Made by a program: the position numbers and the translations under genes
Shown: piece after piece, positions 3,627 through 17,809 of the stretch
Numbering within the stretch: position 1 is the stretch's first letter
Layout of the letters: every line of letters begins with the position of its first letter
The notes under the pieces: generated by a model
Database searches by the model: none
What the model was told of the DNA's origin: nothing
What the model saw: the letters and a program-made list of their open reading frames with translations, nothing else
From: a virus
Virus record (IMG/VR): IMGVR_UViG_3300047089_000113
Span: 16,595 to 80,594 of that record
Direction: 5' to 3' (one strand)
Length of the DNA stretch: 64,000 nucleotides

Positions 3627-4241
3627 TTACCTCCCGGCCTGAGCTTGCGCTGCCCTCGCTCGGGTGCGCTCGGGCAGGATGTCCTCGGCGCTGACGTACG
3701 TGCCGCCCGCGCCGGGGTCACCGTCGCTGTTCTCGCTGCCCGGCACCGGCTCACCGGTCTCCGGGACCTCCTGCTGGAGGATCGCGGATGCGCCAGCCGG
3801 GTCGGGCAGCGGCATGCCCGAGCCCGGAGCGGGCGTTGCGGGCTGCCGCAACGCCCCCGAGACCGCGCGTGGGGGGACACGCTGCGGTGCCTCGCTGCTG
3901 GACTTCGGGCCGGTCGCGGGCCGGATAACCGGCACCCTGCGTCCGTCTCCCGGCCCGTGCCGCATGTAGCCAGCCGCTTCCTCGGGCGTGAGATTGACCG
4001 TCTCGCCCGCCATCACCAGGTCCGAGCCGCGCAGCGGGTCAGTCCCGCGCCGGGGCACGTTCAGGTTGATCAGCGCGATGTACGGGTCGCCGGGCCTGGA
4101 GGCAGGCGTCTGCACCTGGCTCTCCCGCGCGAGCAGCTTGTTCATCACCTCGCGCTCGGCCTCGGACAGCGGGGTCATCTCCGATGCCTCGTTGATGACC
4201 GGCATTGGGCGTCCTGCGCCTGGCCGTGTCTGCGGGGGCAT
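3627..4241 (-). CDS. Hypothetical protein directly after the capsid gene
   Basis: 204 aa, TGATG-coupled to the major capsid gene. Confidence 0.55.
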   Translation of the reverse strand: MPPQTRPGAGRPMPVINEASEMTPLSEAEREVMNKLLARESQVQTPASRPGDPYIALINLNVPRRGTDPLRGSDLVMAGETVNLTPEEAAGYMRHGPGDGRRVPVIRPATGPKSSSEAPQRVPPRAVSGALRQPATPAPGSGMPLPDPAGASAILQQEVPETGEPVPGSENSDGDPGAGGTYVSAEDILPERTRARAAQAQAGR

Positions 4242-5152
4242 CAGACTCCGCTCAGCAGCACGATGGCCAGCGGCTGGTCCAGGCCGATGGCAGCGGCGCG
4301 CTGCGTGTCCGACCGCCAGGTCTTGCGCGGCTCGTCGCGGTAGAGCGGGCCTGCCATGAACGGCAGCTCGTCCGCGAAGAAGCCCGCCCGCTGGCGCTGC
4401 ATGATGAGCGCGTTGCCCGCCGGGACCTGGCGGGAGACCATCACGTCCAGGTTGAGGATCTGCTGCGGGAGCGTGCCCGTGTACAGCAGGTTCTCGCTGG
4501 CGATGTCACCGATGTACGGCGCGGCGAACGTGGCGCTCTGGAGCAGCGTGTTCTTGGTGCCGTGGTTGATGATCAGCGTGTCGGCCTCGAATCCGAGCCA
4601 CTGCGTCACGCCGCTCGGGGACACGATGTTGGCGTTCTCGATCAGGTAGACCGCCTGCATGATGTCGGCCCGGATGGTCGCAGCCGCGCTGGCCCAGGCG
4701 TTCGCCACGGCGAGTGTCTGGATCGAGGCGTTGGAGACTACCGCCGAGTAGAAGGCGGTGTTCCACGAGTAGACCATCGTGTTCTTGACCTGCAAGAGCT
4801 GGCGGGTCACCGGGTCGATGGCCTGACGGCGGCGCATCTCATCGGAGACCATGATCGCCATCGCGCGCTCGTGGCTGAAGACCACTCGCGGGATTCCGAC
4901 GCTGGTCGGCACGATCGGGACCTCACCGAACTCAGGCCGGATCTCCGGGTAGTCGTCGGCGTACAGAGGCGTGCTCTCGGCGTACCTGACCGCGCCGGAT
5001 GGTGCCGCCCCGCCCGACCGCAGCACCGAGTCCATGACGAACTCGTTGCGCGTGATATCGAGGATGAGCTGGGGGATGACCAGCGGGTCCTTCAGCAGCT
5101 CGTTGACGGTGATCCGTGGTGCATCGCTATAGCTCCTGGCACCAGTCGGCAT
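4241..5152 (-). CDS. Major capsid protein
   Basis: 303 aa with HK97-fold-like features (EFGEVP, terminal IGLDQPLAIVLLSGV); follows the protease/scaffold and decoration genes; GGGAG RBS. Confidence 0.85.
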   Translation of the reverse strand: MPTGARSYSDAPRITVNELLKDPLVIPQLILDITRNEFVMDSVLRSGGAAPSGAVRYAESTPLYADDYPEIRPEFGEVPIVPTSVGIPRVVFSHERAMAIMVSDEMRRRQAIDPVTRQLLQVKNTMVYSWNTAFYSAVVSNASIQTLAVANAWASAAATIRADIMQAVYLIENANIVSPSGVTQWLGFEADTLIINHGTKNTLLQSATFAAPYIGDIASENLLYTGTLPQQILNLDVMVSRQVPAGNALIMQRQRAGFFADELPFMAGPLYRDEPRKTWRSDTQRAAAIGLDQPLAIVLLSGV

Positions 5153-5885: not shown

Positions 5886-6545
5886 CTACAGGCCCATCTG
5901 CTGCCTGGCGCGGTCGATGACCTCGCTGCGCGCCGTCTGCTCCGCGCTCGGCTGCGCGCCGGGCGGCTCGTCCATCGGGGTGCCCAGCTCCGCGCCCAGG
6001 TCGAGCATCTGCGCCATCTTGGCGTACTCGCTCAGCACCTTGCGCATGACCTGGCCGACGTCCACCCGCTGGCCGTTGGCCAGGTCGATGGTGTGCCCGG
6101 AGCCCTGGAGCACCGGCCGGGCCAGGTCGGTGATGTAGGGCGGCACGCCGAGATCCGCGAGCTGCCGCTTCTCCACATCGAACGTCTGCGCCTCGAACCG
6201 CGTCTGGAAGACGCCAAGCTGGCGCTCGGTCTCATCCGCGCGGGAGTTGGCGAGGTCGATGGCCATCTGCGCCTCGGCCGTCAGGCCGGTGGTCTGCATG
6301 GCATCGGCGGTGTCGGCGTCAAGCCCGGCCTCGACGGCGGCCAGCTCGTCATCGTCCAGGGCGGCGATCAGGTCGGCCAGCTCGGCGTCGGTCAGCTCGT
6401 CATCGGCTGGCGGTGCGGGCGGCGTGCTGCCGTTACCAGCAGGCGGGGCTTGCTGCTGCCCGAGCAGCCGGTCCAGGGCAGCCGGGTCCATGTTGAGCAG
6501 CTTGCTCAGGTTGGCCTGCTGCTGGGGGTTCATCTGCTCGGGCAT
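5886..6545 (-). CDS. Probable nested in-frame scaffolding protein (internal start MPEQ)
   Basis: AGGAAGTGGAGACC-ATG at the protease/scaffold junction, analogous to Mu I/Z. Confidence 0.45.
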   Translation of the reverse strand: MPEQMNPQQQANLSKLLNMDPAALDRLLGQQQAPPAGNGSTPPAPPADDELTDAELADLIAALDDDELAAVEAGLDADTADAMQTTGLTAEAQMAIDLANSRADETERQLGVFQTRFEAQTFDVEKRQLADLGVPPYITDLARPVLQGSGHTIDLANGQRVDVGQVMRKVLSEYAKMAQMLDLGAELGTPMDEPPGAQPSAEQTARSEVIDRARQQMGL

Positions 6546-7088
6546 GGTCTCCACTTCCTGTCCGGCGTAACTCGATCCGGTGAGGTCTATAACGAGTGAC
6601 GGCGTGTTGGCCGCCTCGATGGTCTGCCAGGCCCCGAGGCCCGGAATGCGCGGGTCCAGTGTCCCGAGCACGTGCTGAACGGCGGCAGGGTAGAACTTCC
6701 CGTCCGCGCGCTGGTACTGCTCGACTATCCGCGCCGATACGCCCAGGTACGGATTCTCCCTCAGCACCTGCTCGCCAGCCGGGGTCGGGTCGAGCGTGAT
6801 ATAGAGCCCGTCCGGCTCGGTCTGCATGTCCACGATCGTGCCGCGATGACGCTCCGGGTCATTGGTATGACTGTTGCCCGCGTCCGCGAGCTGGAAGGAC
6901 ACCTGGTCATACGCCCGGCTGCGGAACGCCTCTGCCAGCCCCGCCAGGTAGCCCGGCGTGAAGTGCAGCGTGCGGCCCTGGTACTGGATGTCCCCGATCG
7001 GCAGCACCCGCTTGCGCCAGAGCTTGTTGCCCAGCTCGATCGCAGTGCCCCGGTCGAACGGGGTCAGCAGCGCGGCGAAAGCGGTCAT
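5886..7088 (-). CDS. Prohead (capsid maturation) protease fused to scaffold, Mu gpI-like
   Basis: H (NSHTND), GVSARI...Y...G..Y...HV..T..P.I.GL protease motifs, then an acidic helical scaffold region. Confidence 0.75.
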   Translation of the reverse strand: MTAFAALLTPFDRGTAIELGNKLWRKRVLPIGDIQYQGRTLHFTPGYLAGLAEAFRSRAYDQVSFQLADAGNSHTNDPERHRGTIVDMQTEPDGLYITLDPTPAGEQVLRENPYLGVSARIVEQYQRADGKFYPAAVQHVLGTLDPRIPGLGAWQTIEAANTPSLVIDLTGSSYAGQEVETMPEQMNPQQQANLSKLLNMDPAALDRLLGQQQAPPAGNGSTPPAPPADDELTDAELADLIAALDDDELAAVEAGLDADTADAMQTTGLTAEAQMAIDLANSRADETERQLGVFQTRFEAQTFDVEKRQLADLGVPPYITDLARPVLQGSGHTIDLANGQRVDVGQVMRKVLSEYAKMAQMLDLGAELGTPMDEPPGAQPSAEQTARSEVIDRARQQMGL

Positions 7089-7699
7089 GAGGGTGCCCCG
7101 AACGACTGGGCGCGCTTGGCGAACTTGTGCGCCTTGGCGTGGTCCCAGCCCTTGGCCTTCAGCTTCTTCCTGATGCTCAGGCCCTTGGGTGACAACTCGT
7201 TGTCGTCGGCGTCGGGCTCCTTGCCGCCGTTGGCCATGGTGACCCGAGCGCCGTCACCGGCTGAGCGCGCGGGCGTGGCCAGGGCGTTGATAGCGGGCAC
7301 CCCGTACTGCTCCATCAGCGGCGTCTGGACCGGCGGCGGCTGGAGCGCCCCGTCAGCAGGCTGGTCGGTGCCCCGGTTCCACAGGCCCAGCAGCTCGGCC
7401 AGGGCTCCGCGCTGGTGCACATGCGGCCGGGTGGACGTCTTGCCGCCGTAGACCGCCCGCCAGCCGTCCTCGTCCCTGATCTCCCCGATCAGCGTGCCGC
7501 CCCTGCGGTGCCGGATCGACGCGCCGCCGGTTGCGCTGCGGCCGATCAGGACGTCGCCGGGCGACGTGACCGGGTATCGCGGGGTGGCCAGCTCGACCCT
7601 GCTGCCCCTGGTGCGGCTGGCGATGTAGGCGGCTAGATGCTCGGGGTTGCTCACTCCGCGTACGGCTAGTGCTGCGATGGCAGCCTGCCGTGAGGCCAT
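7085..7699 (-). CDS. Putative internal head protein with C-terminal basic helical hairpin
   Basis: AGGAGG RBS before ATG 7699; contains a VELA site; ends KKLKAKGWDHAKAHKFAKR. Confidence 0.6.
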   Translation of the reverse strand: MASRQAAIAALAVRGVSNPEHLAAYIASRTRGSRVELATPRYPVTSPGDVLIGRSATGGASIRHRRGGTLIGEIRDEDGWRAVYGGKTSTRPHVHQRGALAELLGLWNRGTDQPADGALQPPPVQTPLMEQYGVPAINALATPARSAGDGARVTMANGGKEPDADDNELSPKGLSIRKKLKAKGWDHAKAHKFAKRAQSFGAPS

Positions 7700-7784
7700 G
7701 ACGCCTCCTAGACTCTCAACGTCTACTTGAAGGCCATCGTAGGCTGCCGCGTCCAGGAACGCATGACCCGGTATGCAGGAATCT

Positions 7785-7928
7785 TCAGGATTGCTGCTGC
7801 GCGATGGCCTGATCCGTAACCTCGGTGGCAAATTCCTCGGCGCGTTCTTCGTCCATGCCCTTGCTCACCAGAAGCTCTGTCCACACGTCGATGAGGTACT
7901 GGCGATCCTCTGGTTTGACGGTCGCCAT
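7785..7928 (-). CDS. 47-aa acidic protein (MATVKPEDRQYLIDVWTELLVSKGMDEERAEEFATEVTDQAIAQQQS)
   Basis: Below the ORF-track cutoff; translated by hand; ATG overlaps the upstream TGA. Confidence 0.6.
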   Translation of the reverse strand: MATVKPEDRQYLIDVWTELLVSKGMDEERAEEFATEVTDQAIAQQQS

Positions 7929-8797
7929 CACAGCTTCTTAAAGAACTCGATGATGGTCTGGATCAGGAACGGACCCACCGTGGCGATGATCGGCAGGATC
8001 TCGGGAGCGCCCGACTTCACCGCGAGATAGGCCAGGGCACCGCCCGTGACGGCAAGACCGGCCTCGGTGGCGAGCTTCATCTTGGCCTTGCGGCCCGCCC
8101 AGGTGTCTTCTTCCTTCTTGGCCTCTGCCAGCTTCTGGCTTACGAGCTGCTGGGCCTGGGCCACCGCCTGCTGGGCCTTGCTCTCGGCCAGCGGCGCGAC
8201 CTGGGTGGCGATGAGCTGCTGGTGGATAAGCTGCTCGCGCCTGGTCGGCTGCACCTTGCCGCTGACCTGGTAGGCAACCTCGGCCGCCTTGTTCTCGGGC
8301 GCGATGTCCGCCGGGACCTTGATCTGCTTGGCCAGCTCCTGCTGGATGAGCTGGCGCAGGTGCTCGTCGGAGACGTCGCTGCCCGCGCCGAGACTGCCGG
8401 TGCTGCTGGCGTGGCGGGACTGGGCGGCCTGTATCCGCCGCAGCCGTGCCGCCCGCTTGGCTTCCGTGCCGACAGCGCCGCCGGGGCCGACCCACTTCCC
8501 GCCCTTGCCCCGTCGTTCGGTGCGCCAGGCTTCGTTGGCCAGGTCGATGAGCTGGCTGGTGATGGTGTCACCCGCCAACTGCCCCAGGAGCGTGCCTTCT
8601 CCGACCACGGGTCCAGTATCCAGCGTCCCGGCCAATCTGGAAAGCATCACGCCCGCATCCTGGATCTCGCGCAGCTCCGCGCCGGTCGCGGCGATGGCCA
8701 TCTCGCGCACCTGGCTGAGCGCGCTGGCGACCCGGCCCGCCGGGTCTTCCCAGGCCCATTTGGCGATGCTGAGTGCCCGCTGCCCGTCTGGTGTCAT
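7928..8797 (-). CDS. Putative capsid-packaged protein with tag, coiled coil and C-terminal hydrophobic hairpin
   Basis: LIDLANEAWRTERRGKGGKW internal tag, Q/A-rich helix, two hydrophobic segments at the C-terminus. Confidence 0.6.
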   Translation of the reverse strand: MTPDGQRALSIAKWAWEDPAGRVASALSQVREMAIAATGAELREIQDAGVMLSRLAGTLDTGPVVGEGTLLGQLAGDTITSQLIDLANEAWRTERRGKGGKWVGPGGAVGTEAKRAARLRRIQAAQSRHASSTGSLGAGSDVSDEHLRQLIQQELAKQIKVPADIAPENKAAEVAYQVSGKVQPTRREQLIHQQLIATQVAPLAESKAQQAVAQAQQLVSQKLAEAKKEEDTWAGRKAKMKLATEAGLAVTGGALAYLAVKSGAPEILPIIATVGPFLIQTIIEFFKKL

Positions 8798-11700
8798 GCC
8801 GCTTCCGCCATCTCGCGCTGCTTCTCGACCACCTGCTGGAAGGCCGCGCTCTTGGCTGACCTGAACGCCTGCCTGGCCGCGCCCTCCGGGTTATCGGTGT
8901 TCCACTGCTGAAGGATGCTCTCGGTGATCGTGCTGGCCATCTGGTCCATGAACGCCTTGTCCGCGCGCATCTTCGGCTCGTCGGTGGTCATCGCCAGGGC
9001 GAGTTGCGCCGCCATGGCCTGGACCTTGCCGGATGCTCCCTGGCGGTTCACCTGGTTAGCCAGTTCAACGATCCGCGCCCTGCCCTGCGGGCTGTCCAGG
9101 ATCAGGTTCTCCTGCTGGACCACCTGCTGCACCCAGTCCTGGGCGTCCTTGGTCTGCGACGGGTAGTGCCCCCAGGCGTTGCCGTTGTGGATCTCGTCCG
9201 GGTTGTTGATGGTCTCGGCCATCTCCTTCACGGTGTGACCGGGGAACGTCCGGGCCTGCCGGTCCCCGATGCCCATCTGGTCAAAAAACTCGGGAGCGTG
9301 GTGGATCGCGCCCAGCTCGGTGAAGCCTTCCTCGATCTGGGATACGGCGAAGACCTGGTACGCCTTCTCGTTGGCCTTCGCCGTGCCCGCCGGGACCACG
9401 CCGTGGATCATCTCGTGCGCCAGCACCTCGAACGCATCGGGGTAGCGGACGGGATCGTCCGGGCGGTCGCTGGCGTCCTTGATCGCGGCGGCTACGTTGT
9501 CCGCGATGGACAAGGTGCCGTTCCACTCCATCTCGGCCAGGATGTGCGGCTTGGACTCCTTGCGGTAGAGGCTGGCTTCACCGTCCCATTCCTCGTGACT
9601 GCCGCCGAGCAGGCGCGGGATGATGTTCGCCGCCTTGGTCGTCTCGGCCACGACCGCCGTATCCAGCTCCTGCTCATTCGGGATCGGCGGGCCGACGAAC
9701 GGGACAGCCGCCGCGCGCAGCAGCTTGCCGATGTGCATCTGCTCGGTGCGGCCCCTGGTCCAGCGTCCCCGGAAGTCACGCAGCTCATCGGGATGGAACG
9801 CGAGGTCTAGGAGCGGTGCGTCAATCCCGCCTGGACCTGCTCGGCTATCTTCTCCGCTGCCGCCAGCCGCTCGTCCTCCGGGAGGTCCCAGTAGCCAGGC
9901 GGGATAGGCACGATCACCTTCGGCGTTGGCGTGCTCGATGATGCTTCCGCCACCGGTTCCTCCAGTCTGGATCTCCGCGCCGTTGTTCACGTCCCAGATG
10001 GCGATCTGGTTGCGCTCGGCTGCCGCGCGCACCGCCTCGGACTTGCTGGTGATGTTGTCGCTCGGCTCCAGCCATAGCTTACCGCCGTGTACCCACCCGC
10101 CGAGGAACGTGCTCCGGTCCCTGAAGGCCGACTTCTCGGACATCAGCATGTCGTCAATAGCACGGGTCAGGGCCTTGCGATCGTCCAGGACCGACTCGGG
10201 GAAGACGTGCGTGTGATCGGTCTGCGCCACCATGTAGCCGGTCTTCGGCTCACCGCCGGTATGCAGGCTGACGCTGAAGCCCTCGCGGTTCTGGCGCATG
10301 ATGTCGGCGGCCTCGCCTACCGCGCCGAACTTCGCCCAGCGCCCCCGGTCATCGCGGAGCTGGTCCGGGTTGAACGCCATGTCGATCAGCGGCTCGCTGT
10401 CCGTGTTCGCGCCCTCGACCAGCCTGGCGTTGCCCAGCGCCCGGCCGCCGATGCCCATGCCGACAGCGAAGGAGATGGCGTAGGGGATGGCCAGCCGGGC
10501 TGGCAGGCCGATCCGCTGGACCTCGATCTCCTTCGGCCCGAGCCCGGCGTACGCCAGCGCCTCATCTGACGCCCATCGGTGGTGCCCGTCGATCACGTAG
10601 TTGTCGCTGGTGACCCAGATGGGCTCCTTCAGCATCTTCCGCACGGCCGGGACGTTCTTCTCGGCCGCCGCCGTGATGCCCGCCACCGTCGCGGCGGTGA
10701 GCTGGGTCTGGGTGGCGCGCAGGTTACCGGCCGGTACGCGCTCGTTCTTGACGTCGATGCCGTCGCGCCTGAGCTGGTCACGGAACTCGGGGTCCAGCTC
10801 GATGAACTTGTTGGCCCCGCCCGCCAGCAGCGCCGCCTCGGAGCCGGGCCGGGCCGGGCCGTTGAGCTGCGGCATGTCGGTGCGCGGGATGCCCAGGGTC
10901 TGCTCGTTGAACAGCCGGGTGCCCTTGACGCTGACCAGGCCCAGGTCCCAGGGCGGCTCGTTGTCCCGCGTGTAGCCCTGCGCGCTGGCCTTCGCGTTCA
11001 CCGCGTCGAGCAGCGGCTTGATCTCGGCCGGGCTGCTCAGCCGGACGTGGCTGCCAGCCGCCATCAGGTCCACGGCGCGGCCCATGTCGCCCTGGGCGTC
11101 GATCGGGTCCTCGGGGGTACCGGCACCGTCAGGCCGTCCCGGCAAGTTCAGCGGCTTGCGCTGGTCGGCTGCCTCCATCGACGGGATCTGCGGGTCGTAG
11201 CCCTCGAACCGCCCCCGGTAGCCGTGCCGCTCCAGGCTGGCCGCGTGCGACTCCAGCCCGCCGCCGCCGTGGGTCCACCGGCCGGTGATGTCCCGTTCCT
11301 CGTGCAGCCAGCCGGTGCCCATGTCAAGCACCTGGGCGGACAGCAGGCGTTCAGTTTCCTGAACGTTCGAGAACTGCTCGGTCAGCAGCCCGGTGGTGCC
11401 GGGCACCAGCGTGTAGCCGTGCCGGGCGGCTTCCGCCTGCCACTTGTCCCAGGCGTTGCGCAGCATGGTGGACCGGCCCTTGGACAGCCGCCGTCCGCCC
11501 CGGCTGGCGGCCACCGATGAGGACAGCTCGTGCGCGGCCTCGTCCTCGGCCTCGTTGATCCGCTGCTGGCGCAGCCAGGTGATCGCCTGCACCTGGTGCG
11601 GGCTGACCGGCGTGCCCCGCGCGCTGATCTCCAGGGCGGCGTTGCGGTAGGTGTCGGCCACGTACTGGTAGTAGCGGTCCTTGCCGATCGGGGCCTTGTC

Positions 11701-12354
11701 GGCTTCCTTCTTGGGCAGCCGCTCGTCCATAGCCACGGTCATCGCGTGCCGGTCGATGACCACCTGGCCGAGGTGATCGTCCGGCTCGTCACCGCCCGCG
11801 CGGATCAGCCGGGCGAACGCCTTGGTCTTGGAGCTGTTGTTGGCCTCGTCGGCGTCCATGCCGTCGATGGCTTCCTGGGCGTTGGCCTGCATCGAGCCGG
11901 TGATCATGCCCTCGCCCGGCCCGAGCGCCCGGTTCTCGTCCAGCGACCGGTCGGCGTTGAACATGTTGACCGCCCAGCCGGTCTGCGGGGACAGGGCGGC
12001 GATCACGCCCGCGTTCTTCTCGATGTCTCCCTGGTCCATCTTGGCGGCCAGGTTGTGCGCGTCGGCGTACCAGCGCATCCCCTGGGCGCGCTCCTGGGCA
12101 TCGGAATCGTCGTAGGCGGCGACCACGTTGGCCGCGCTGACCGGGTGCTCCTTGAAGAACGGGTGATCGGCGGGGGTGCGGTAGTAGTAGGACCCGCGCC
12201 GCTTGGCCAGGATCAGCCGGTCGGGGTCCGGCGCGGTGTACGCCTCGCCGCCCTTGGTCCAGCGCCCGCGCTCGTCGCGCTTCTCGAACGGGTCGAACCG
12301 CCAGCCCAGCTCCAGCTCATCCGGGCCGGTGAACCACTCCAGCAGCTCGGTCAT
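8794..12354 (-). CDS. Four-module polyvalent protein: HhH-glycosylase-like, ParB/Srx-like, unknown, HExxH zinc peptidase
   Basis: Motifs AALSPQ..W..N/IDRHA/QAITW, IDGHHRW, GYMVA..GGW..NQIAIWD and HEMIH...EEGFTE, each module preceded by an RDxxGRW tag. Confidence 0.7.
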   Translation of the reverse strand: MTELLEWFTGPDELELGWRFDPFEKRDERGRWTKGGEAYTAPDPDRLILAKRRGSYYYRTPADHPFFKEHPVSAANVVAAYDDSDAQERAQGMRWYADAHNLAAKMDQGDIEKNAGVIAALSPQTGWAVNMFNADRSLDENRALGPGEGMITGSMQANAQEAIDGMDADEANNSSKTKAFARLIRAGGDEPDDHLGQVVIDRHAMTVAMDERLPKKEADKAPIGKDRYYQYVADTYRNAALEISARGTPVSPHQVQAITWLRQQRINEAEDEAAHELSSSVAASRGGRRLSKGRSTMLRNAWDKWQAEAARHGYTLVPGTTGLLTEQFSNVQETERLLSAQVLDMGTGWLHEERDITGRWTHGGGGLESHAASLERHGYRGRFEGYDPQIPSMEAADQRKPLNLPGRPDGAGTPEDPIDAQGDMGRAVDLMAAGSHVRLSSPAEIKPLLDAVNAKASAQGYTRDNEPPWDLGLVSVKGTRLFNEQTLGIPRTDMPQLNGPARPGSEAALLAGGANKFIELDPEFRDQLRRDGIDVKNERVPAGNLRATQTQLTAATVAGITAAAEKNVPAVRKMLKEPIWVTSDNYVIDGHHRWASDEALAYAGLGPKEIEVQRIGLPARLAIPYAISFAVGMGIGGRALGNARLVEGANTDSEPLIDMAFNPDQLRDDRGRWAKFGAVGEAADIMRQNREGFSVSLHTGGEPKTGYMVAQTDHTHVFPESVLDDRKALTRAIDDMLMSEKSAFRDRSTFLGGWVHGGKLWLEPSDNITSKSEAVRAAAERNQIAIWDVNNGAEIQTGGTGGGSIIEHANAEGDRAYPAWLLGPPGGRAAGGSGEDSRAGPGGIDAPLLDLAFHPDELRDFRGRWTRGRTEQMHIGKLLRAAAVPFVGPPIPNEQELDTAVVAETTKAANIIPRLLGGSHEEWDGEASLYRKESKPHILAEMEWNGTLSIADNVAAAIKDASDRPDDPVRYPDAFEVLAHEMIHGVVPAGTAKANEKAYQVFAVSQIEEGFTELGAIHHAPEFFDQMGIGDRQARTFPGHTVKEMAETINNPDEIHNGNAWGHYPSQTKDAQDWVQQVVQQENLILDSPQGRARIVELANQVNRQGASGKVQAMAAQLALAMTTDEPKMRADKAFMDQMASTITESILQQWNTDNPEGAARQAFRSAKSAAFQQVVEKQREMAEAA

Positions 12355-15300
12355 GCTGCCTTCGCCCGTGCCTGCTTCTCCAGCTCACCGGCCTCGGCCT
12401 TGCCAGCCGCAGCCCTGACCTCGGGGTGCACCTTGCCGCCGCCCGCTGCCCAGCGCCGGATTGCCGCTCGGGCAATCGCGTACGCCTTGTCCTCGGACAT
12501 GCCGCGCTTCTCGATCAGTGCCTTGACGATCTGCTGGAGGTACGGGGTGTGACCGAGCCCCTTGACGTCATATAGTCCGGGACCGCCGGGCTTCCCGCGC
12601 GGAGCCGGTGTGACACTGAGCACACCCGTCTGCGCGGACAGCTCGGCGGCGAACTGGCTGACGGATGAGACGGTCTCCATCTGCGGGATGCGCAGCGCGC
12701 CGCGCGTCGGGTTGGACGGCAGGCGGGTGCCGACGTAGTGACCCGGATGCGCTGCCCGGCGCGAGATCGGGCTGTAGGTCCGCTCCCGCCAGCCGGTGGC
12801 CTGCTTCGGCACCCGGTCCAGTTGCTTCTCCAGCTCGGCCAGGTCCCTGGTCCACATGCCGCTGGCCTCGGTGACGTTCGCCTGCTTGGCGACCTCCAGG
12901 TGTATCCGCGCCGACTTCATGTCCCGCCCGGCCAGCGAGTGAGCCAGGTTGTGCAGCGCGGTCTGCAAGGTCGATGACCTGTTGCCCGGCGCGGTGTCGG
13001 AGCTGACCGCCTTCGCGCCCAGATCCTCGATCGCGCGCAGGTGCTCGAACGAGCCGGGCTGGAGCCCGGCCGCGAACTTGGTCGGGTCCACCTTGATCCA
13101 GCCGTGGATGTAGCCCTTCGGCCCGACCAGATCGAGCGGCGTGGCGAGATTCCTGGCCCTGGCCAGCACCGCCTGCGCCTTGCTGTGGGACGCGCCGCCC
13201 TTGCGCAGCTTCGCGTACAGCTTCTGCTTGCGCGCATCACCGCCGAACATCGCGCTGAAGCCCCTGGCCTCCTTGCCGGACAGGTGCCTGCCGAACGGGC
13301 CGGGGATGCCCGCCACGCCGGTTACCGCCTCGTTGCGCATCGCCTGCTTGCTGACGTGCCCGCCGCTGACGTGGCCGCGCCTGGCCCCGAGCATGCTGGC
13401 CATGCCCGCTGCCTCGTGCCGGGAGACGTGCTTGCCGGTCAGGGCCGAGATCGGCATCTGCGCGGGGTCCTTGATCCAGCCGTGCCGGTAGCCCTTCGGG
13501 CCTGCCAGCTCGATGGCGTCGGTCACGTCCTCCCAGGACAGCGCGGCAGCCCGCTTCGTGTAGCTGGCGATCTCCCTCGCGTAGGTGCCGATCTGCCGGT
13601 TGATGGCCGCCGCCTCGGACGCGGCGGACAGCGGCCCGGCCGCCTTCTTGGCTCCCGCCGCCTTCCCGGTCTTGGCCCTGGCACCCGCCGCCGAGATGGC
13701 TGCCGCGCCCCTCTTGGCCGGTGCGCCCTTCTTGGCCGGGGTGGACGTGGCGGCCTTGCCGATCTGGCCCGCCTGGGTGGCCTTGTTCCGGGCGTCCAGC
13801 GCGGTGATCCGGCCGCTGGCGAGCGCCTTCAGTATCCGGCGCAGCGTCTCGATCCTGGCCCGGTCATTGGCGATGGCCGCGAGCAGCGCAGACTTCGCCT
13901 GCTGATTCGCTGACTTCTGCGCGGGCTTCTTCTGGGCTGCCCCGCCGCTGCTGCCCTTGATGAACTGCCCGCCGGTAGCGATACCGGCACCCGCGCGGGC
14001 CTGGCCAGGGTTGCCAGCCGGGTTGAACAGCTCTACAACGCGAAAGGGCGCGGCCCCGGTAGGCGTGGCAAAGCCAGCCGGGGGCACGGCCTTTCCCGCG
14101 TCAAAGCTCTTGCCGATGCTCCGCAGCACGGCCATCGCCCGGCTGTGCGAGTGCCCCCTGGCCCGCAGCGTCTTGTAGGCCCGCTGCTTCCTCGGGCTCA
14201 TGCTCCTGACCCGGCTCTCCAGCGGCAGGCCGGTGCCCGCTGCCGCCGCCTCGGTGGCCGAGCCAGCCTGGAACAGCTTGCCCAGTGACCCGCCGGACGC
14301 CGGGACGAAGTGATGCGTCGGGGTCCTGGGGAAGCGCAGGGACGGCGGGCCTTCCACGAACTTGTACTTCTTGCCCCGGATCGTGATCGGCGGCCCGGCC
14401 CCCCTGGCGGCCTCGGCCTTCTTCTGCGCCTCGATGCCCCCGCCGATCTTGATCCAGCCGTGCCTGAAGCGGAACGCCAGATCGACCTCGTTGGAGAACT
14501 GCGCCGTGGCGAGCTGGCGGGCCTGCTCCCGGTGGTTGGCCTCGGAAGCGAAATCGCCGCGCCTGTGCGCCGCGCCCGCTATCTTCAGGTGCAGCGCCAT
14601 GGACAGCTTGCGCTTCTTCTCGCTGCGCCCGGCCGACTGGCTGGCCCCCAGTGCCCTGATCAGCCCGGCTCGCCGGGCCATCTTCATGCTCGCGGTGCCC
14701 GCCATCATGCCGGGGACACCCTGCCACCGGCCGTGCCGGTCGCGCACCTCATCCGGGTTGTACCGCAGCTCGACCACGAAGCGGTCCTCGATGCCGTACG
14801 CGGCCAGGTTGAACTCGCTGCCCATCGTCTTAGCACCGGGCTCGGCCCAGGTGCCCTTCAGGTGGTGCGCCACGCCCATCCGCTTCGCGTTCTTCTGGAT
14901 GGCACGCTTCAGCACTCCGCGCTTGCCCGGCGCGACCCGGCCGACCGCCTTCAGCGCCTTGTGCAGGTAGCTCACGTTCGGCATCGGGTAGCTGGTGCCG
15001 TACGCGGTCTGTCCCTTCTTCTGGAGCGCCCGCCTGCCAGCCGCCGTCTCATGATGGGGCACGGCGGCCAGCTCGATCGCGCCCAGCACATCGCCCCAGC
15101 TTGCGGCGACGTTCATCGGCGGCGGTGCCGGTGCTGATGATGTGCGCATGGCTCTCTCCTGGGCCTGCTGGTCCCGCTCGTCGCGGCGTTCCTGGCCGAT
15201 AGCCCGGTTGGACCCGTGGATGTCCTCGATGTCCTTGACCAGCAGCAGGTGCCGGTGGGCCTGCTGCATGAACGCCTTGCCGCGCATGTGCCCGGCGTCA

Positions 15301-15557
15301 TCGTGCACGCCGTGGCGTCGGAGCTGGACCGGCTGGAGCCCGAAGATCGCGGCGTTCAGGTGACGCTGGGAGCTATTCGTGCGCCCGGCGTCCAGCTCGC
15401 GCGCCGCGTCCCGCAGGTGGTCGTGCACCGCCATCTCGGGGTAGGCATCGGCCATGTCGGCGGCCAGCTTGCGCAGGCTGGCCGATGTTCGCTGCTTCAT
15501 CGGGCCGGTGGAGATGGCCCGGTGGAACCGGGGAGGTCCCTGCGGCTGCTCGGACAT
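12351..15557 (-). CDS. Large basic multi-module head-associated polyprotein
   Basis: 1068 aa, K/R/A/G-rich, repeated [IVL][ED]L sites followed by YNPDEVRDRHGRW or GPKGY.HGWIK; lies directly after MuF. Confidence 0.65.
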   Translation of the reverse strand: MSEQPQGPPRFHRAISTGPMKQRTSASLRKLAADMADAYPEMAVHDHLRDAARELDAGRTNSSQRHLNAAIFGLQPVQLRRHGVHDDAGHMRGKAFMQQAHRHLLLVKDIEDIHGSNRAIGQERRDERDQQAQERAMRTSSAPAPPPMNVAASWGDVLGAIELAAVPHHETAAGRRALQKKGQTAYGTSYPMPNVSYLHKALKAVGRVAPGKRGVLKRAIQKNAKRMGVAHHLKGTWAEPGAKTMGSEFNLAAYGIEDRFVVELRYNPDEVRDRHGRWQGVPGMMAGTASMKMARRAGLIRALGASQSAGRSEKKRKLSMALHLKIAGAAHRRGDFASEANHREQARQLATAQFSNEVDLAFRFRHGWIKIGGGIEAQKKAEAARGAGPPITIRGKKYKFVEGPPSLRFPRTPTHHFVPASGGSLGKLFQAGSATEAAAAGTGLPLESRVRSMSPRKQRAYKTLRARGHSHSRAMAVLRSIGKSFDAGKAVPPAGFATPTGAAPFRVVELFNPAGNPGQARAGAGIATGGQFIKGSSGGAAQKKPAQKSANQQAKSALLAAIANDRARIETLRRILKALASGRITALDARNKATQAGQIGKAATSTPAKKGAPAKRGAAAISAAGARAKTGKAAGAKKAAGPLSAASEAAAINRQIGTYAREIASYTKRAAALSWEDVTDAIELAGPKGYRHGWIKDPAQMPISALTGKHVSRHEAAGMASMLGARRGHVSGGHVSKQAMRNEAVTGVAGIPGPFGRHLSGKEARGFSAMFGGDARKQKLYAKLRKGGASHSKAQAVLARARNLATPLDLVGPKGYIHGWIKVDPTKFAAGLQPGSFEHLRAIEDLGAKAVSSDTAPGNRSSTLQTALHNLAHSLAGRDMKSARIHLEVAKQANVTEASGMWTRDLAELEKQLDRVPKQATGWRERTYSPISRRAAHPGHYVGTRLPSNPTRGALRIPQMETVSSVSQFAAELSAQTGVLSVTPAPRGKPGGPGLYDVKGLGHTPYLQQIVKALIEKRGMSEDKAYAIARAAIRRWAAGGGKVHPEVRAAAGKAEAGELEKQARAKAA

Positions 15558-15560
15558 GGC

Positions 15561-16235
15561 TCACACTCCCGCCATAGCTGGCTCGGGACTGGTGCTGGGT
15601 AGCATTCTCGCACCGATGCGCGGCGGCCCCGCGTAGCACCGGCAGTGCGGGTGCACCGAGCCGGGGTAGCCGATCAGCGGCACCGAGCTGGCCCGGAAGT
15701 TCGCGCCGTTCGCGGCCCGGCAGTCGGCGCTGGTCCGGGAGTCGAGCACCGTGTTCCAGCCGAGCATGTCGCCCCAGGTCCACGCGGCCATGTCCACCTG
15801 CATGGCCGCCTGGGCACGCTGCCAGATGGCGTCCCGGTGCTGGCCGAAATAAAGGCGCTCGCGGGCCATCCCAGCCGCGAGCGCCTTTATCACTGCCTCC
15901 CCGCGTGACCGGGCCTCAACCATGTCCCTGGTCAGCCGCCGGGCTGCGGCCAGGGCGAACTGGGCGCGGCGGATCAGGTTGGTGCGGCTGGCGTTCATCG
16001 TGGCCGATCCCGCGACCCCGGTCTGCTCGGGCGGCATCGCCATCACGACCTCCAGCGCGGCCCGCATCGCGCCCCGGCTGACCTTCCAGGTGACCAGCGC
16101 CGCGCCGCCGAGCATGGTCAGCGCGGCGACCGCGCTGGCCGCGCCGACCAGCGCGGTGGCGATGGCCGTCACCGCCGCCGCGTCAGCCGCCGCGTCCTGC
16201 TGCGGCTCCGGTGGCGGCTGCTGCGGGGTGCTCAC
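15561..16235 (-). CDS. MuF-like (SPP1 gp7) minor head protein
   Basis: W....DSRTS..C...G...PG.VHPHCRC motif; follows the portal gene. Confidence 0.75.
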   Translation of the reverse strand: MSTPQQPPPEPQQDAAADAAAVTAIATALVGAASAVAALTMLGGAALVTWKVSRGAMRAALEVVMAMPPEQTGVAGSATMNASRTNLIRRAQFALAAARRLTRDMVEARSRGEAVIKALAAGMARERLYFGQHRDAIWQRAQAAMQVDMAAWTWGDMLGWNTVLDSRTSADCRAANGANFRASSVPLIGYPGSVHPHCRCYAGPPRIGARMLPSTSPEPAMAGV

Positions 16236-17809
16236 GCCAGCCGTCCGGGCGGCGGGACACTCGGCGGCTTAGCAGGCGGTGTCCGCTGCTGTGCCGGGGC
16301 CAGCGGCGCTCCGGGCGGCGGTCGCATCTGCGCGCCCTGCGGACGCCCGGCCGCGCGGTTGGCGATGGCAACGCCCGCGCCCGCCAGGCCCTGGAGCCCG
16401 CCGAGCGCCCCGGCGGCCTCGGGCGGCATGCCGGGCGGCGGCTGGGCCTGCAACTGCTCGGCCCGCTGGCTGGAGGTGGACATCAGCGCGGCGTGCACCT
16501 GGTCCACGTCGAGCTGGAGGACCGAGGCCATCCGCTCGGTGATCAGGTCCACCACCTGGATCGGGATGTGCAGCGCGGGTGCCGCCACGATCTGGCCGAA
16601 CAGGGTCAGCAGCGCCTGCTCCTGCTCATCCTGGAGCGGGCCGAACTTGGCCTGCGGGATCGCGGCCTCGGGACCGAAGTTGAGCACGGTCAGCGGCATG
16701 ATGACCTGGTTGGAGTACGCCTGCGCGATCTCGGCAGCCACGCCCTGCCGGGACTTGAGGTAGAAGCTGGACTGGTCCTGGCTCAGTGCGTAGGAGCCCT
16801 TGCCGCCTGTTGCCGAGCTGGTCAGCGCCATGAAACCGGCCAGCACCGAGTGCACCTGCCAGCCCTCCAGGAAGTTCAGCGCCTCCACGAAGAACTTGCC
16901 GCCGTCGCCGCTGTTCTCCATCATCTCGAACGCCTTCTGGCCCGCCTGCGGCTGCTCCATGCCGACCACGCCCGAGGACTTCAGCGAGGCGATCGAGTCG
17001 GCGCGGTTGTTGGCGGACGGCTGGTCCGGCCCGTACACGACCACGCGGGGCAGCGCCTGGGTCTCCAGGAAGTGGTACCAGAGGTAGAGCAGCTTCATCT
17101 TGGTCTGGTAGCACCAGTAGCTGACCTCCATCTCCGACGCGCCGGTCAGCGGCTCGCGGTGCTTGCCGTGCGTGTAGATGAAGCTGCGGACGTGCGGGAT
17201 GTCCACGTAGCCGGGGACCTTCTGCTTGGACGCCGTGCTCATGAGCTGCCCGCCGAACAGCCACACCTGCTGGCGGAAGCCGTGCGGCGCGGCGGTCTTG
17301 GCGTTGTAGCGGGCCTGGCAGGTGGCGCTCGGCCGGAACGCGATCTTGTCGTAGATGATCTTGCCGTCGCTCTCGCGGATCTTCCAGACCTTCTCGAAGA
17401 ACGCGCGCCGGTAGATCTGGCCGGACGTGATCTGGCCGATCAGGTCCACGTTGGGCGTCTTCATGCCGCCGATGTGGTCCGGCGTCAGCAGGACGCTGGT
17501 AGCCAGCTCCAGCTCGCCCTTGTCGCCCTTGGCCCCGGTGATGTCAAAGTCGGCCTCGCGGATCGGCAGGGTCAGCGCGGCCTCGACGGCTGAGCACAGC
17601 CCGTCGCGGCTGAACATCACCTTCATGTCCCGGCTTGACCACTCGCCGTAGTCAAAGACGTCGCCCTCGCCGTAGTAGGCGAATAGCCGCTGGCCCCAGT
17701 CGAACTGCGTGCCGATCTCCGGTCCCAGGAGCTGGCCCTTGGTCGCCTTCAGGTCCGGCAGCTTCAGCACCTGCGCGAGCGTGCCGGTGGCGTTCTGGCG
17801 AGGCGGCAT
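16232..17809 (-). CDS. Portal protein (Mu gp29/DUF935-like)
   Basis: 525 aa after TerL; FEKVW and GSYALSQDQS...LNFG motifs. Confidence 0.85.
   Translation of the reverse strand: MPPRQNATGTLAQVLKLPDLKATKGQLLGPEIGTQFDWGQRLFAYYGEGDVFDYGEWSSRDMKVMFSRDGLCSAVEAALTLPIREADFDITGAKGDKGELELATSVLLTPDHIGGMKTPNVDLIGQITSGQIYRRAFFEKVWKIRESDGKIIYDKIAFRPSATCQARYNAKTAAPHGFRQQVWLFGGQLMSTASKQKVPGYVDIPHVRSFIYTHGKHREPLTGASEMEVSYWCYQTKMKLLYLWYHFLETQALPRVVVYGPDQPSANNRADSIASLKSSGVVGMEQPQAGQKAFEMMENSGDGGKFFVEALNFLEGWQVHSVLAGFMALTSSATGGKGSYALSQDQSSFYLKSRQGVAAEIAQAYSNQVIMPLTVLNFGPEAAIPQAKFGPLQDEQEQALLTLFGQIVAAPALHIPIQVVDLITERMASVLQLDVDQVHAALMSTSSQRAEQLQAQPPPGMPPEAAGALGGLQGLAGAGVAIANRAAGRPQGAQMRPPPGAPLAPAQQRTPPAKPPSVPPPGRLA

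What the first reader, a model, noticed from the sequence alone, without database searches (positions are those of the whole stretch)
7085..15557. Tag-and-cut polyprotein system: candidate capsid-packaged effector cargo between MuF and the prohead protease
Seen: unrelated domains in these genes each start with a two-part signal, a [ILV]-[DE]-[LM] site followed by a short tag. In 8794-12354 the junctions are LELGWRFDPFEKRDERGRW (about 12255-12318), VLDMGTGWLHEERDITGRW (about 11275-11332), LIDMAFNPDQLRDDRGRW (about 10336-10390) and LLDLAFHPDELRDFRGRW (about 9760-9813). In 12351-15557 they are IELA, VELRYNPDEVRDRHGRW, VDLAFRFRHGWIK, VELFNP...GGQF, IELAGPKGYRHGWIK and LDLVGPKGYIHGWIK. In 7928-8797 it is LIDLANEAWRTERRGKGGKW. 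The same site without a tag recurs in the protease/scaffold (IELG, IDLT at the domain junction, IDLA twice, LDLG). Known: prohead proteases cleave scaffold and internal proteins at short motifs (T4 gp21, phiKZ gp175), T4 internal proteins carry a capsid-targeting sequence, and MuF proteins can carry toxin extensions. Inference: these are polyproteins loaded into the prohead and cut into roughly a dozen tagged proteins that are ejected with the DNA. The tag lies C-terminal to the presumed cut, so it would stay on the mature cargo as a docking, DNA-binding or ejection signal. This would be a plug-in delivery system.
Basis: partly seen in the sequence, partly recalled or inferred. Interest (0 to 1): 0.92.

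Follow-up and report, generated by a model that had tools for sequence, protein, structure and literature searches.

The report
Junction tags on phage capsid cargo
An uncultured 80-kb high-GC phage encodes, between its head genes, long multi-enzyme proteins in which each module starts with the same short two-part signal: a probable cut site for the phage's own head protease, followed by a conserved peptide tag. I found no description of this tag, although it occurs in about a thousand other large phage protein families, so it probably marks proteins that are packed into the capsid, cut apart and injected with the DNA.

Summary
RDxxGRW (5 copies) and HGWIK (3 copies) occur only in the two giant genes 12351-15557 and 8794-12354 of a 98-ORF proteome. 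Every copy lies 8-16 residues after [ILV][DE][LM].

Module gains, losses and swaps between related phages break exactly at these junctions. The tags lead modules: 85 of 149 tagged proteins have one at the N-terminus and 1 has one at the C-terminus.

The gene at 5886-7088 is a real prohead serine protease. It has the T4 gp21/herpesvirus fold and invariant His74, Ser118 and His139. The same [ILV]-[DE]-[LM]-[AST] motif sits, nearly invariant, at its own protease/scaffold junction and at three points in its scaffold part.

A profile of the tag finds 950 protein clusters, mostly 1000-3800 aa with 2-13 tags. They carry ADP-ribosyltransferases, GNATs, kinases, Zeta toxin, Acb1, MuF and portal domains. 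In distant lineages the tag is kept but the upstream site changes.

No cutting, packaging or ejection has been measured, and the tag's function is unknown. A C-terminal gluzincin module is a rival processing enzyme.

I found no Pfam, NCBIfam, PDB or literature record of the tag. Other agents of this scan noted similar "cut site plus tag" cassettes on other phage DNA.

The parts
15561..16235 (-). MuF-like minor head protein. It follows the Mu-type portal (16232-17809) and the large terminase (17813-19468).
   Evidence: Pfam PF04233, PF06074, and PF03237/PF17289.
12351..15557 (-). Cargo polyprotein 1 (P0001, 1068 aa; the start is probably 15500). Six junctions would give about seven small, basic, mostly helical products. 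The conserved C-terminal domain of about 110 aa is shared with the N-termini of Araceli gp9 and the giant protein of Mwe-JY05.
   Evidence: No Pfam, PHROG or NCBIfam hit.
15069..15077 (-). Junction IEL|A, preceded by SWGDVLGA; no class A or B tag follows.
   Evidence: The SW.DV..AIEL context recurs in homologues.
14724..14774 (-). Junction VEL + class A tag (RYNPDEVRDRHGRW).
14448..14486 (-). Junction VDL + class B tag (AFRFRHGWIK).
13962..14036 (-). Junction VEL + degenerate tag (FNP...GGQF).
   Evidence: This is the weakest tag of the set.
13470..13514 (-). Junction IEL + class B tag (AGPKGYRHGWIK).
13092..13136 (-). Junction LDL + class B tag (VGPKGYIHGWIK).
8794..12354 (-). Cargo polyprotein 2 (P0002, 1186 aa): a 16-aa leader, then four tagged modules.
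12259..12315 (-). Junction 1: LEL + class A tag, 13 residues from the N-terminus.
11572..12135 (-). Module 1: DUF7178 domain. It occurs as a stand-alone protein in other phages, where some records annotate it as a glycosylase.
   Evidence: PF23802, E = 2e-34; tblastn hits.
11275..11328 (-). Junction 2: LDM + class A tag.
   Evidence: The homology block shared with L009 ends here.
10387..11274 (-). Module 2: ParB/Srx-like. This rests on a DGHHR motif and phrog_2859 only.
   Evidence: No Pfam or PDB sequence match.
10336..10386 (-). Junction 3: IDM + class A tag.
9811..10335 (-). Module 3: small domain of unknown function (phrog_17808). It is absent from the L005 polyprotein and is flanked by tags on both sides.
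9760..9810 (-). Junction 4: LDL + class A tag.
8797..9759 (-). Module 4: gluzincin-type metallopeptidase (HEMIH ... EEGFTE). It is the usual C-terminal module of this lineage's polyproteins.
   Evidence: Invariant H116/E117/H120 and E144-E149. AF2 pLDDT 87.6. The top structural matches are M1, thermolysin and DPP III peptidases, Z 8-9.7. Found in 34 of 150 tagged representatives, and only in the site dialect.
7928..8797 (-). P0003 (289 aa): conserved N-terminal region of about 85 aa, then junction plus tag (8492-8548), a coiled region, and two C-terminal hydrophobic helices.
   Evidence: The tag position is conserved in four relatives while its sequence varies.
7085..7699 (-). P0004 (204 aa from the likely start). 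It has a leader of variable length, the site VEL (7589-7597), and then the conserved ATPRYPVTSP... with no class A or B tag.
5886..7088 (-). Prohead serine protease (residues 1-150, nt 6639-7088) fused to an acidic scaffold-like C-terminal part. Motif copies are at 6582-6590 (IDL|T, the domain junction), 6252-6260, 6081-6089 and 5997-6005.
   Evidence: ESM Atlas neighbours are PF10123. H74, S118 and H139 are 100% conserved in 116 homologues, and D168/L169 are 100% conserved. AF2 pLDDT 82. Foldseek top hit is T4 gp21, 5jbl, E = 2e-4, followed by HCMV and EBV proteases.
4241..5152 (-). Major capsid protein. It has no site and no delta domain. The scaffold-like gene 5164-5670 lies upstream.
   Evidence: phrog_1650, E = 1e-73, and PF25209; zero sites.

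Best explanation
Genes 12351-15557, 8794-12354, 7928-8797 and 7085-7699 encode capsid-internal cargo of the phage-type polyvalent protein kind. They are organised as polyproteins. Each module is preceded by a composite junction with two halves.

The upstream (P-side) half has a core of [ILV]-[DE]-[LM] followed by a small residue. It has extended contexts such as IS.Q.., SW.DV..AI.. or [LF][AS]N-x3-5. I read it as the recognition site of the phage's own prohead serine protease (5886-7088, T4 gp21 / Mu gpI fold). That protease carries the same motif at its own protease/scaffold junction.

The downstream half is a conserved peptide tag:
- class A: [FY][ND]P.[EQ].RD..G[RK]W
- class B: GP[KH]GY.HGW[IV]K

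The tag would remain at the new N-terminus.

Inferred course of events: the polyproteins are co-assembled into the prohead and cut there into about 13 products. These products stay in the head and leave with the DNA.

Shown: the motif, its statistics, its position at module boundaries and recombination breakpoints, the protease fold and catalytic residues, and the effector-like content of tagged proteins.

Inferred: cleavage, the scissile bond, packaging, ejection, and what the tag binds.
For: 1. Specificity. The tags occur only in these head genes in two complete genomes.
2. Coupling of site and tag is far above chance.
3. Homology blocks between the window and the L005/L009 polyproteins start and end at junctions. 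Module 3 is an insertion flanked by two tags.
4. In 149 tagged proteins, 85 have a tag within 45 aa of the N-terminus and only 1 within 45 aa of the C-terminus. The median spacing between tags is 249 aa. Module families occur in many ordinal positions with many different neighbours.
5. The protease is real. Its junction V-[ILV]-D-L-[TS] is 100% conserved at D and L. Three further copies in the scaffold part show the same D/E and L/M interchange as the cargo junctions.
6. In the 7085-7699 family the site sits between a leader of variable length (37-116 aa) and a strongly conserved mature start. This is typical of a propeptide.
7. Araceli and Mwe-JY05 keep the sites in their protease/scaffold and cargo genes. 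Neither has an HExxH peptidase in its head module or a homologue of module 4. This ties the site to the serine protease.
8. In distant lineages the tag is kept while the P-side changes, for example to K-[FYW]. The P-side stays uniform within each protein, as expected if it co-evolves with the resident protease.
9. Tagged proteins carry ART, GNAT, PI3/4-kinase-like, Zeta toxin, Acb1, NUDIX, HD and 2H domains. The tag also links portal to MuF (L018) and portal to an RNase (L042).
10. Virion packaging of large polyvalent proteins is documented elsewhere: phi24B gp47 (bioRxiv 10.64898/2026.04.10.717836); Iyer et al. 2017, PMC5512222.
Against: - There is no proteomic, N-terminal or genetic evidence for any cut.
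- The acidic residue is missing at some junctions (VLL|A and IQM|A; IGL/ISL/INL).
- Spacing between site and tag is nearly fixed, so the two halves could be one structural or binding unit, such as a hairpin, rather than a cut site plus a tag.
- One motif copy in the protease (residues 17-19) is buried in a beta strand. Two scaffold copies lie in or at the end of helices.
- Module 4 is a gluzincin that co-occurs with the site dialect: 34 of 69 site or mixed proteins against 0 of 80 others.
- The tag also occurs in chromosomal, apparently non-phage proteins next to housekeeping genes. It is therefore not strictly a capsid address.
- Some large virion proteins, such as N4 vRNAP, are packaged uncut (PMC5512222).
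Confidence: 0.55

Rival explanations
1. No cleavage. The whole junction, site plus tag, is a repeated short linear motif or hairpin that binds the capsid interior, scaffold, portal or MuF. It would load the intact polyvalent protein by avidity, as encapsulin cargo-loading peptides do. The copies in the scaffold part of 5886-7088 would be the same capsid-binding motif, not cut sites.
For: - Spacing between site and tag is fixed.
- The full site is kept even at the extreme N-terminus, where nothing needs to be severed.
- There are up to 13 copies per protein.
- The motif is enriched in the scaffold region.
- Large polyvalent proteins can be packaged uncut (PMC5512222; phi24B gp47).
Against: - In the 7085-7699 family the site occurs without any tag, between a variable leader and a conserved start.
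- The best-conserved copy lies exactly at the protease/scaffold boundary, in a linker.
- Portal-tag-toxin fusions need a cut for the toxin to leave.
- The P-side is lineage-specific whereas the tag is universal.
Confidence: 0.2
2. The polyproteins are cut, but by the embedded C-terminal gluzincin (module 4, 8797-9759), as Iyer et al. proposed for polyvalent proteins, and not by the prohead serine protease.
For: - Module 4 has an invariant HExxH...E signature and a gluzincin-like model.
- It is the near-constant terminal module of this lineage. It is found only in proteins using the [ILV][DE][LM] dialect.
- The proposal is made in PMC5512222. It was also raised in scan note e1-6093106.
Against: - Araceli and Mwe-JY05 conserve the sites in protease/scaffold and cargo but have no module-4 homologue and no HExxH in head-module proteins.
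- The site is conserved inside the serine protease's own gene at its domain boundary.
- The co-occurrence may simply reflect shared ancestry of the lineage.
Confidence: 0.12
3. The tag acts after delivery, not in the capsid. It would be an epitope on each effector that engages a target-cell factor or a translocation step. The upstream site is then only the release point.
For: - The same tag separates an N-terminal domain from variable toxin-like C-termini (Tox-REase-5, lysozyme-like, CHAP) in chromosomal proteins of Alphaproteobacteria, next to housekeeping genes.
- The tag is followed by a Gly-rich flexible stretch.
- From memory only, D..G.W followed by Gly-rich disorder loosely recalls the colicin TolB-box region. 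This is a lead, not a test.
Against: - The tag spans hosts with very different envelopes and factors: Actinomycetota, Alphaproteobacteria and others.
- It also links portal to MuF, which are structural parts rather than effectors.
Confidence: 0.08
4. The junctions are only conserved linkers that promote domain shuffling by recombination. They have no role in targeting or processing.
For: Breakpoints of module gain and loss coincide with the tags.
Against: - The tag DNA is not conserved beyond what the peptide requires. Synonymous positions differ.
- R, G and W are 97-100% invariant across 612 copies in very distant proteins.
- The N-terminal bias of 85 to 1 is not explained.
Confidence: 0.03

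Closest known systems
Phage-type polyvalent proteins (Iyer, Burroughs, Anand, de Souza, Aravind 2017, PMC5512222)
   Same: Giant multi-domain proteins encoded with portal/terminase/MuF head genes. They combine effector domains (ART, ParB-like, zincin peptidase, kinases) and are predicted to be packaged and injected, with processing proposed.
   Different: That paper proposes processing by embedded zincins. A full-text search of it found no inter-module tag or shared cut site. Here each module has a defined junction: a lineage-specific site shared with the prohead protease gene, plus a conserved peptide.
T4 internal proteins and Alt with the capsid targeting sequence, cut by gp21 (reviews PMC3012670, PMC9958956, listed but not read; details from established knowledge)
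   Same: A prohead protease of the same fold. Short N-terminal leaders end in a hydrophobic-x-acidic type site. Cargo is retained and ejected.
   Different: In T4 the targeting peptide lies before the cut and is discarded, and each cargo is a separate gene. Here the conserved peptide lies after the presumed cut and would be kept, and cargo is strung into polyproteins.
Ejection and inner-body proteins of giant phages phiKZ and SPN3US, processed by gp175/gp245 (PMC5694885, PMC7411985, PMC10052503, listed but not read)
   Same: Many head-internal proteins are cut by the prohead protease at a short motif ending in Glu, and are ejected into the host.
   Different: Those proteins are mostly separate genes, and I know of no retained common tag in them. 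The phage here is 80 kb with a Mu-like head module.
MuF polymorphic toxins (Jamet et al. 2017, PMC5576092)
   Same: Variable toxin or effector modules are associated with the MuF head protein of phages.
   Different: Here MuF is a separate 224-aa gene. That paper's text contains none of the words motif, cleavage, linker or junction. Fusions of portal or MuF to cargo through the tag do exist in other genomes.
Encapsulin cargo-loading peptides (established knowledge, not tested here)
   Same: A short conserved peptide marks unrelated enzymes as cargo of an HK97-fold shell.
   Different: Encapsulin peptides are usually C-terminal and single. Binding of the present tag to the capsid is unproven.

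Membership tests
Phage-type polyvalent proteins (Iyer et al. 2017) | Two or more unrelated effector-type domains in one polypeptide | tested here: met
   DUF7178, a gluzincin module and two further modules in the 8794-12354 product. Relatives add PI3/4-kinase-like modules.
Phage-type polyvalent proteins (Iyer et al. 2017) | Encoded in a phage next to portal/terminase/MuF late genes | tested here: met
   The gene order is TerL, Portal_Mu, MuF, cargo genes, protease, scaffold, MCP.
Phage-type polyvalent proteins (Iyer et al. 2017) | Packaged in the virion and delivered to the host | not testable with these tools
   No virion proteome exists for this uncultured phage.
Mu gpI-like prohead proteases (Pfam PF10123, Mu-like_Pro) | Match to the family profile | tested here: not met
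   No Pfam hit at E <= 1 for residues 1-175. The ESM Atlas neighbours are PF10123 clusters (score 0.95; TM by query 0.71), which is a lead only.
Prohead / assemblin-fold serine proteases (T4 gp21, herpesvirus proteases) | Assemblin fold | tested here: met
   The Foldseek top three hits are chains of 5jbl (T4 gp21), E = 2e-4 to 6e-4, probability 1.0, TM 0.5 by target. HCMV and EBV proteases follow.
Prohead / assemblin-fold serine proteases (T4 gp21, herpesvirus proteases) | Conserved catalytic Ser and His residues | tested here: met
   H74, S118 and H139 are 100% conserved in 116 homologues. Their spatial arrangement in the model could not be inspected.
T4-type capsid targeting sequence system | Short N-terminal leader ending in the prohead protease site | tested here: inconclusive
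   Leaders of 5-25 aa ending in [DE][LM] are common, but no cleavage data exist.
T4-type capsid targeting sequence system | The conserved targeting peptide lies before the cut and is removed | tested here: inconclusive
   The most conserved peptide lies after the presumed cut. A weaker conserved P-side (IS.Q.., SW.DV..) could be the analogue of the targeting sequence.
MuF polymorphic toxins (Jamet et al. 2017) | N-terminal MuF domain and C-terminal toxin in one protein | tested here: not met
   MuF is a separate gene, 15561-16235. The cargo genes have no MuF domain.
Zincin MPTase of polyvalent proteins | HExxH plus a downstream Glu ligand in a zincin fold | tested here: met
   Invariant HExxH and EEGFTE. 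The best structural matches are gluzincin catalytic domains, Z 8.1-9.7 over 176-209 residues. Foldseek alone gave nothing significant, and Pfam gave no MPTase-family hit at E <= 1.

The most novel reading that the evidence does not exclude
The peptide [FY][ND]P.[EQ]PRD..G[RK]W, with sister classes such as GPKGY.HGWIK, is a portable and near-universal address or ejection signal for proteins carried inside tailed-phage heads. Placed behind a lineage-specific protease site, it would let any domain be plugged in, loaded, released and injected. If so, the tag is both a sequence marker for discovering injected effectors and anti-defence proteins in metagenomes and a handle for loading chosen proteins into phage capsids.
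Probability: 0.3. Interest if true: 0.9.

Novelty: new variant of a known kind. Interest (0 to 1): 0.72.

Why it matters
Phages are known to carry proteins in the head and inject them with the DNA. Outside T4 and the giant phages, the rules for loading and releasing them are unknown.

A short conserved junction would give three things:
- It would be a simple sequence marker for injected effectors. Tagged modules already include ADP-ribosyltransferases, Zeta toxin, kinases and the anti-CBASS enzyme Acb1. Many module families have no known function: 246 families among 645 modules here.
- It would show how giant polyvalent proteins are turned into separate working enzymes.
- It would allow a testable plug-in design for loading proteins into capsids.

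The tag is absent from Pfam, NCBIfam and the PDB. It is also absent from the two key papers on polyvalent proteins and MuF toxins.

Tried and rejected
- **Close cultured relatives.** Megablast of the head region found none, and tblastn of the 12351-15557 product against phages found nothing.
- **Family searches.** Pfam at E <= 1 or 10 found nothing on the seven segments of P0001, on modules 2-4 of P0002, on the protease domain, or on the tag itself. NCBIfam also found nothing.
- **Tag in solved structures.** The PDB profile search with the tag gave only chance-level hits, such as chimallin at E = 0.08.
- **Modules 2 and 3.** PDB sequence searches found nothing, so the ParB-like label rests on a motif only.
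- **Distant tagged proteins.** tblastn of a distant 8-tag protein against cultured phages hit only an HNH segment. The search for related loci with a 3010-aa tagged protein gave only weak relatives.
  - The tag alignment was too variable for the search for related loci on genomes, so I used a degenerate DNA pattern instead.
- **Structure searches.** Foldseek on the module-4 model gave no significant match. The wide structural search gave gluzincins at modest Z.
- **ESM Atlas.** The C-terminal domain of P0001 gave only sub-threshold hits.
- **Literature.** Searches for QPRD, for polyvalent protein with capsid and proteolysis, for Streptomyces phage virion proteomics, and for virion-packaged anti-defence found no description of the tag.
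- **Rejected mechanisms.**
  - Self-cleavage at Asn-Pro or Asp-Pro: the position before the Pro is N 29%, D 28%, S 17%, W 13%.
  - A recent DNA duplication as the origin of the repeats.
- **Scissile-bond hint.** One homologue is called from the Met that occupies the [LM] position (MAFNP...). This hints at a cut after [LM], but it may be a gene-calling artefact.


Full report
**Setting.** The window is part of an 80,594-bp, 69% GC virus record. On the minus strand lies a Mu-type head module:
- large terminase, 17813-19468
- Portal_Mu, 16232-17809
- MuF, 15561-16235
- four genes without family names: P0001 12351-15557, P0002 8794-12354, P0003 7928-8797, P0004 7085-7831
- a 400-aa gene, P0005 5886-7088
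- a scaffold-like gene, 5164-5670
- the major capsid protein, 4241-5152

Most neighbouring genes overlap by a few bases, as in one operon. The likely true starts are 15500 for P0001 and 7699 for P0004.

**The observation.**
- In a greedy set of 98 ORFs, RDxxGRW (5 copies) and HGWIK (3 copies) occur only in P0001 and P0002.
- A profile of 20 tag copies finds six matches in the whole genome, all in P0001-P0003. It finds seven in the related 83.8-kb genome behind L009, again all in the homologous genes.
- Each of the nine tags has [ILV][DE][LM] 8-16 residues upstream. Chance is about 3e-10 for all nine.
- The tripeptide is enriched 2.8-fold in the five head genes, and 4.2-fold with a following small residue. 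Both figures are well above the expectation from composition.
- The tag DNA differs at synonymous sites, so selection acts on the peptide.

- Class A junctions read roughly I-S-x-Q-h-h-[DE]-[LM]-[AG]-[FW]-x-P-x-E-x-R-D-x-x-G-R-W-x-x-G.
- Class B junctions, seen in 94 homologues of P0001, read [AG]-[IV]-E-L-[VA]-G-P-[KH]-G-Y-x-H-G-W-[IV]-K. They are often preceded by SW.DV..A.
- A further upstream element, [LF]-[AS]-N followed by 3-5 residues, recurs before many sites. One of these is the protease's own junction, A-N-T-P-S-L-V-I-D-L-T.
- The acidic residue is preferred but not obligatory.

**Modules and shuffling.** IMG/VR relatives fetched through P0005 (L005, L006, L007, L009) have the same gene order but different cargo.
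- The window has tag-DUF7178, tag-ParB-like, tag-small domain, tag-gluzincin.
- L005 has tag-(unknown + kinase-like), tag-ParB-like, tag-gluzincin.
- L009 has five tagged modules, including two kinase-like ones.
- BLASTP blocks begin and end at the junctions. Window residues 14-364 match L009 695-1027, which runs from one site to just past the next tag. Window module 3 is an insertion bounded by two tags.

**The protease.**
- P0005 has no Pfam hit. Its nearest ESM Atlas clusters are Mu-like_Pro, PF10123.
- The AF2 model (pLDDT 82; residues 1-145 above 90) has T4 gp21 as its top three PDB matches. Herpesvirus proteases follow.
- In 116 homologues, H74, S118 and H139 are invariant.
- In the same alignment, the motif after the protease domain is V-[ILV]-D(100%)-L(100%)-[TS]. 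It lies in a linker next to a low-confidence stretch.
- Three further copies in the scaffold part are I-[DE]-[LM]-A-N, [VI]-[DE]-L-[AS]-N-G and [LM]-D-L. They show the same D/E and L/M interchange as the cargo junctions.
- The copy at residues 17-19 is a strand inside the fold and is probably structural.

**A tag-independent case.** In 62 homologues of P0004, the site lies between a leader of 37-116 residues (with or without a zinc ribbon) and an invariant start, [AST]x-P-R-Y-P-V. This is the layout of a propeptide.

**How widespread the tag is.**
- The tag profile, searched against 1.84 billion representatives, finds 950 proteins at E <= 1e-3 and 200 at E <= 1e-10. Most are 1000-3800 aa with 2-13 copies.
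- From 612 copies the consensus is [KA]-[FY]-[ND]-P-x-[EQ]-P-R-D-x-x-G-[RK]-W-[TS]-x-G-G-G, with R 98%, G 100% and W 97%.
- Only 154 copies follow [ILVM][DE][LMF]. These cluster in 46 proteins. Another 80 proteins use other P-sides, often K-[FYW], and the P-side is uniform within each protein.
- Tags lead modules: 85 of 149 proteins have one at the N-terminus and 1 at the C-terminus. The median spacing is 249 aa.
- The 645 inter-tag segments fall into 246 families, which occupy many positions with many different neighbours.
- Pfam on 37 such proteins finds DUF7178, ADP-ribosyltransferases, GNATs, PI3/PI4-kinase, Zeta toxin, Acb1, NUDIX, HD, 2H, MuF and a portal.
- A degenerate DNA pattern for the tag hits 29 genome contigs, mostly Alphaproteobacteria MAGs. 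Two of them stand out:
  - a Nocardioidaceae Portal_Mu-tag-MuF fusion;
  - a portal-tag-RNase fusion.

**Which enzyme cuts.**
- Module 4 of P0002 is a gluzincin. It has invariant HExxH and EEGFTE, and a confident model whose best matches are M1, thermolysin and DPP III catalytic domains at Z 8-9.7.
- It occurs only in proteins of the [DE][LM] dialect, so it is a real rival.
- Against it, the cultured phages Araceli and Mwe-JY05 conserve seven sites each in their protease/scaffold genes and have site-bearing cargo. Yet they have no module-4 homologue and no HExxH in their head-module proteins.
- I therefore favour the serine protease.

**Where the cut falls.** This is open.
- By analogy with gp21 and the giant-phage proteases, the cut would follow the acidic residue.
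- By analogy with herpesvirus assemblin, with hydrophobic P3 and small P1', it would follow [LM].
- One homologue that starts at the Met in the [LM] position fits the second option weakly.

**What the tag does is unknown.**
- It is kept across lineages that change the P-side.
- It is followed by flexible Gly-rich sequence. The first 21 residues after the tag in the module-4 model have pLDDT below 50.
- It sits on every module.
- It could be a capsid or scaffold docking peptide, a retention or ejection signal, or an epitope used after delivery.
- It also occurs in chromosomal alphaproteobacterial proteins: an N-terminal domain, the tag, then Tox-REase-5, lysozyme-like or CHAP domains, next to gltB, SHMT or uvrD. 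So it is not strictly tied to a visible head module.

**Comparison with known systems.** The closest kind is the phage-type polyvalent protein of Iyer et al. 2017. That paper proposes zincin autoprocessing and does not mention an inter-module tag. T4 internal proteins share the protease fold and the leader-plus-site logic, but they discard the targeting peptide and are separate genes. Jamet et al. 2017 on MuF toxins describe no junction motif. Pfam, NCBIfam and the PDB hold nothing for the tag.

**Other notes from this scan.** Notes on other genomes describe similar cut-site-plus-tag cassettes. They agree with this report but are not independent evidence.

**Verdict.** I rate it a new variant of a known kind.

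Noticed in passing
window 7928-8100 (C-terminus of the 7928-8797 product): Two C-terminal hydrophobic helices (GLAVTGGALAYLAV..., ILPIIATVGPFLIQTIIEFF) are conserved in four relatives. The tagged product may insert into the host membrane as an ejection or pilot protein.
   Followed up: no
window 12354-12680 (C-terminal ~110 aa of the 12351-15557 product); L001 4827-5100; L002 6714-7000: A domain with the pattern PYLQQIVKAL...RRWAAGGG.V is the one constant piece of about 90 otherwise mosaic homologues (best BLASTP segments mostly 55-79% identical over 7-12% of the query, read as this domain). It sits at the N-terminus of the giant proteins of phages Araceli (gp9) and Mwe-JY05. It may be the anchor to portal or MuF. 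The ESM Atlas gave no named neighbour.
   Followed up: partly
window 14100-14190, 13140-13230, 7100-7190: Basic helix-hairpin units (such as RKQRAYKTLRARGHSHSRAMAVL, RKQKLYAKLRKGGASHSKAQAVL and IRKKLKAKGWDHAKAHKFAKRA) end several small modules just before the next site. They look like HeH/SAP-type DNA-binding hairpins, by eye only.
   Followed up: no
L002 (Microcystis phage Mwe-JY05) 5181-6353 and 6714-11723: A third tag type follows VEL in both the MuF-position gene and the 1669-aa protein: ARYVRT.AGA.RYG.PIG..I. This suggests several interchangeable tag classes behind the same kind of site.
   Followed up: no
L018 2076-4574; L042 131-2200: The tag serves as the link in a Portal_Mu-zinc finger-tag-MuF fusion (Nocardioidaceae MAG) and in a Phage_portal_3-tag-barnase-like RNase fusion (Lichenihabitans MAG).
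   Followed up: partly
L016, L022, L023, L027, L029, L032, L035 (Alphaproteobacteria MAG contigs): These are chromosomal proteins of 240-570 aa. They have a shared N-terminal domain of about 130 aa, one canonical tag, a Gly-rich linker, and variable toxin-like C-termini (Tox-REase-5, lysozyme-like, CHAP). They lie next to housekeeping genes such as gltB, SHMT and uvrD. They look like a polymorphic-toxin family that uses the same tag.
   Followed up: partly
proteins P0126-P0270 (tag-bearing representatives): One tagged polyprotein carries an Acb1 anti-CBASS domain (E = 3e-39). Others carry Zeta toxin, NUDIX, HD and 2H phosphoesterase domains. 194 of 246 module families are singletons without annotation.
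   Followed up: partly
L005 1659-5516; L009 2894-8362: Relatives carry kinase-like modules (LDYLISN.DRH...PID) that the window phage lacks. Pfam PI3_PI4_kinase matches occur in other tagged proteins.
   Followed up: no
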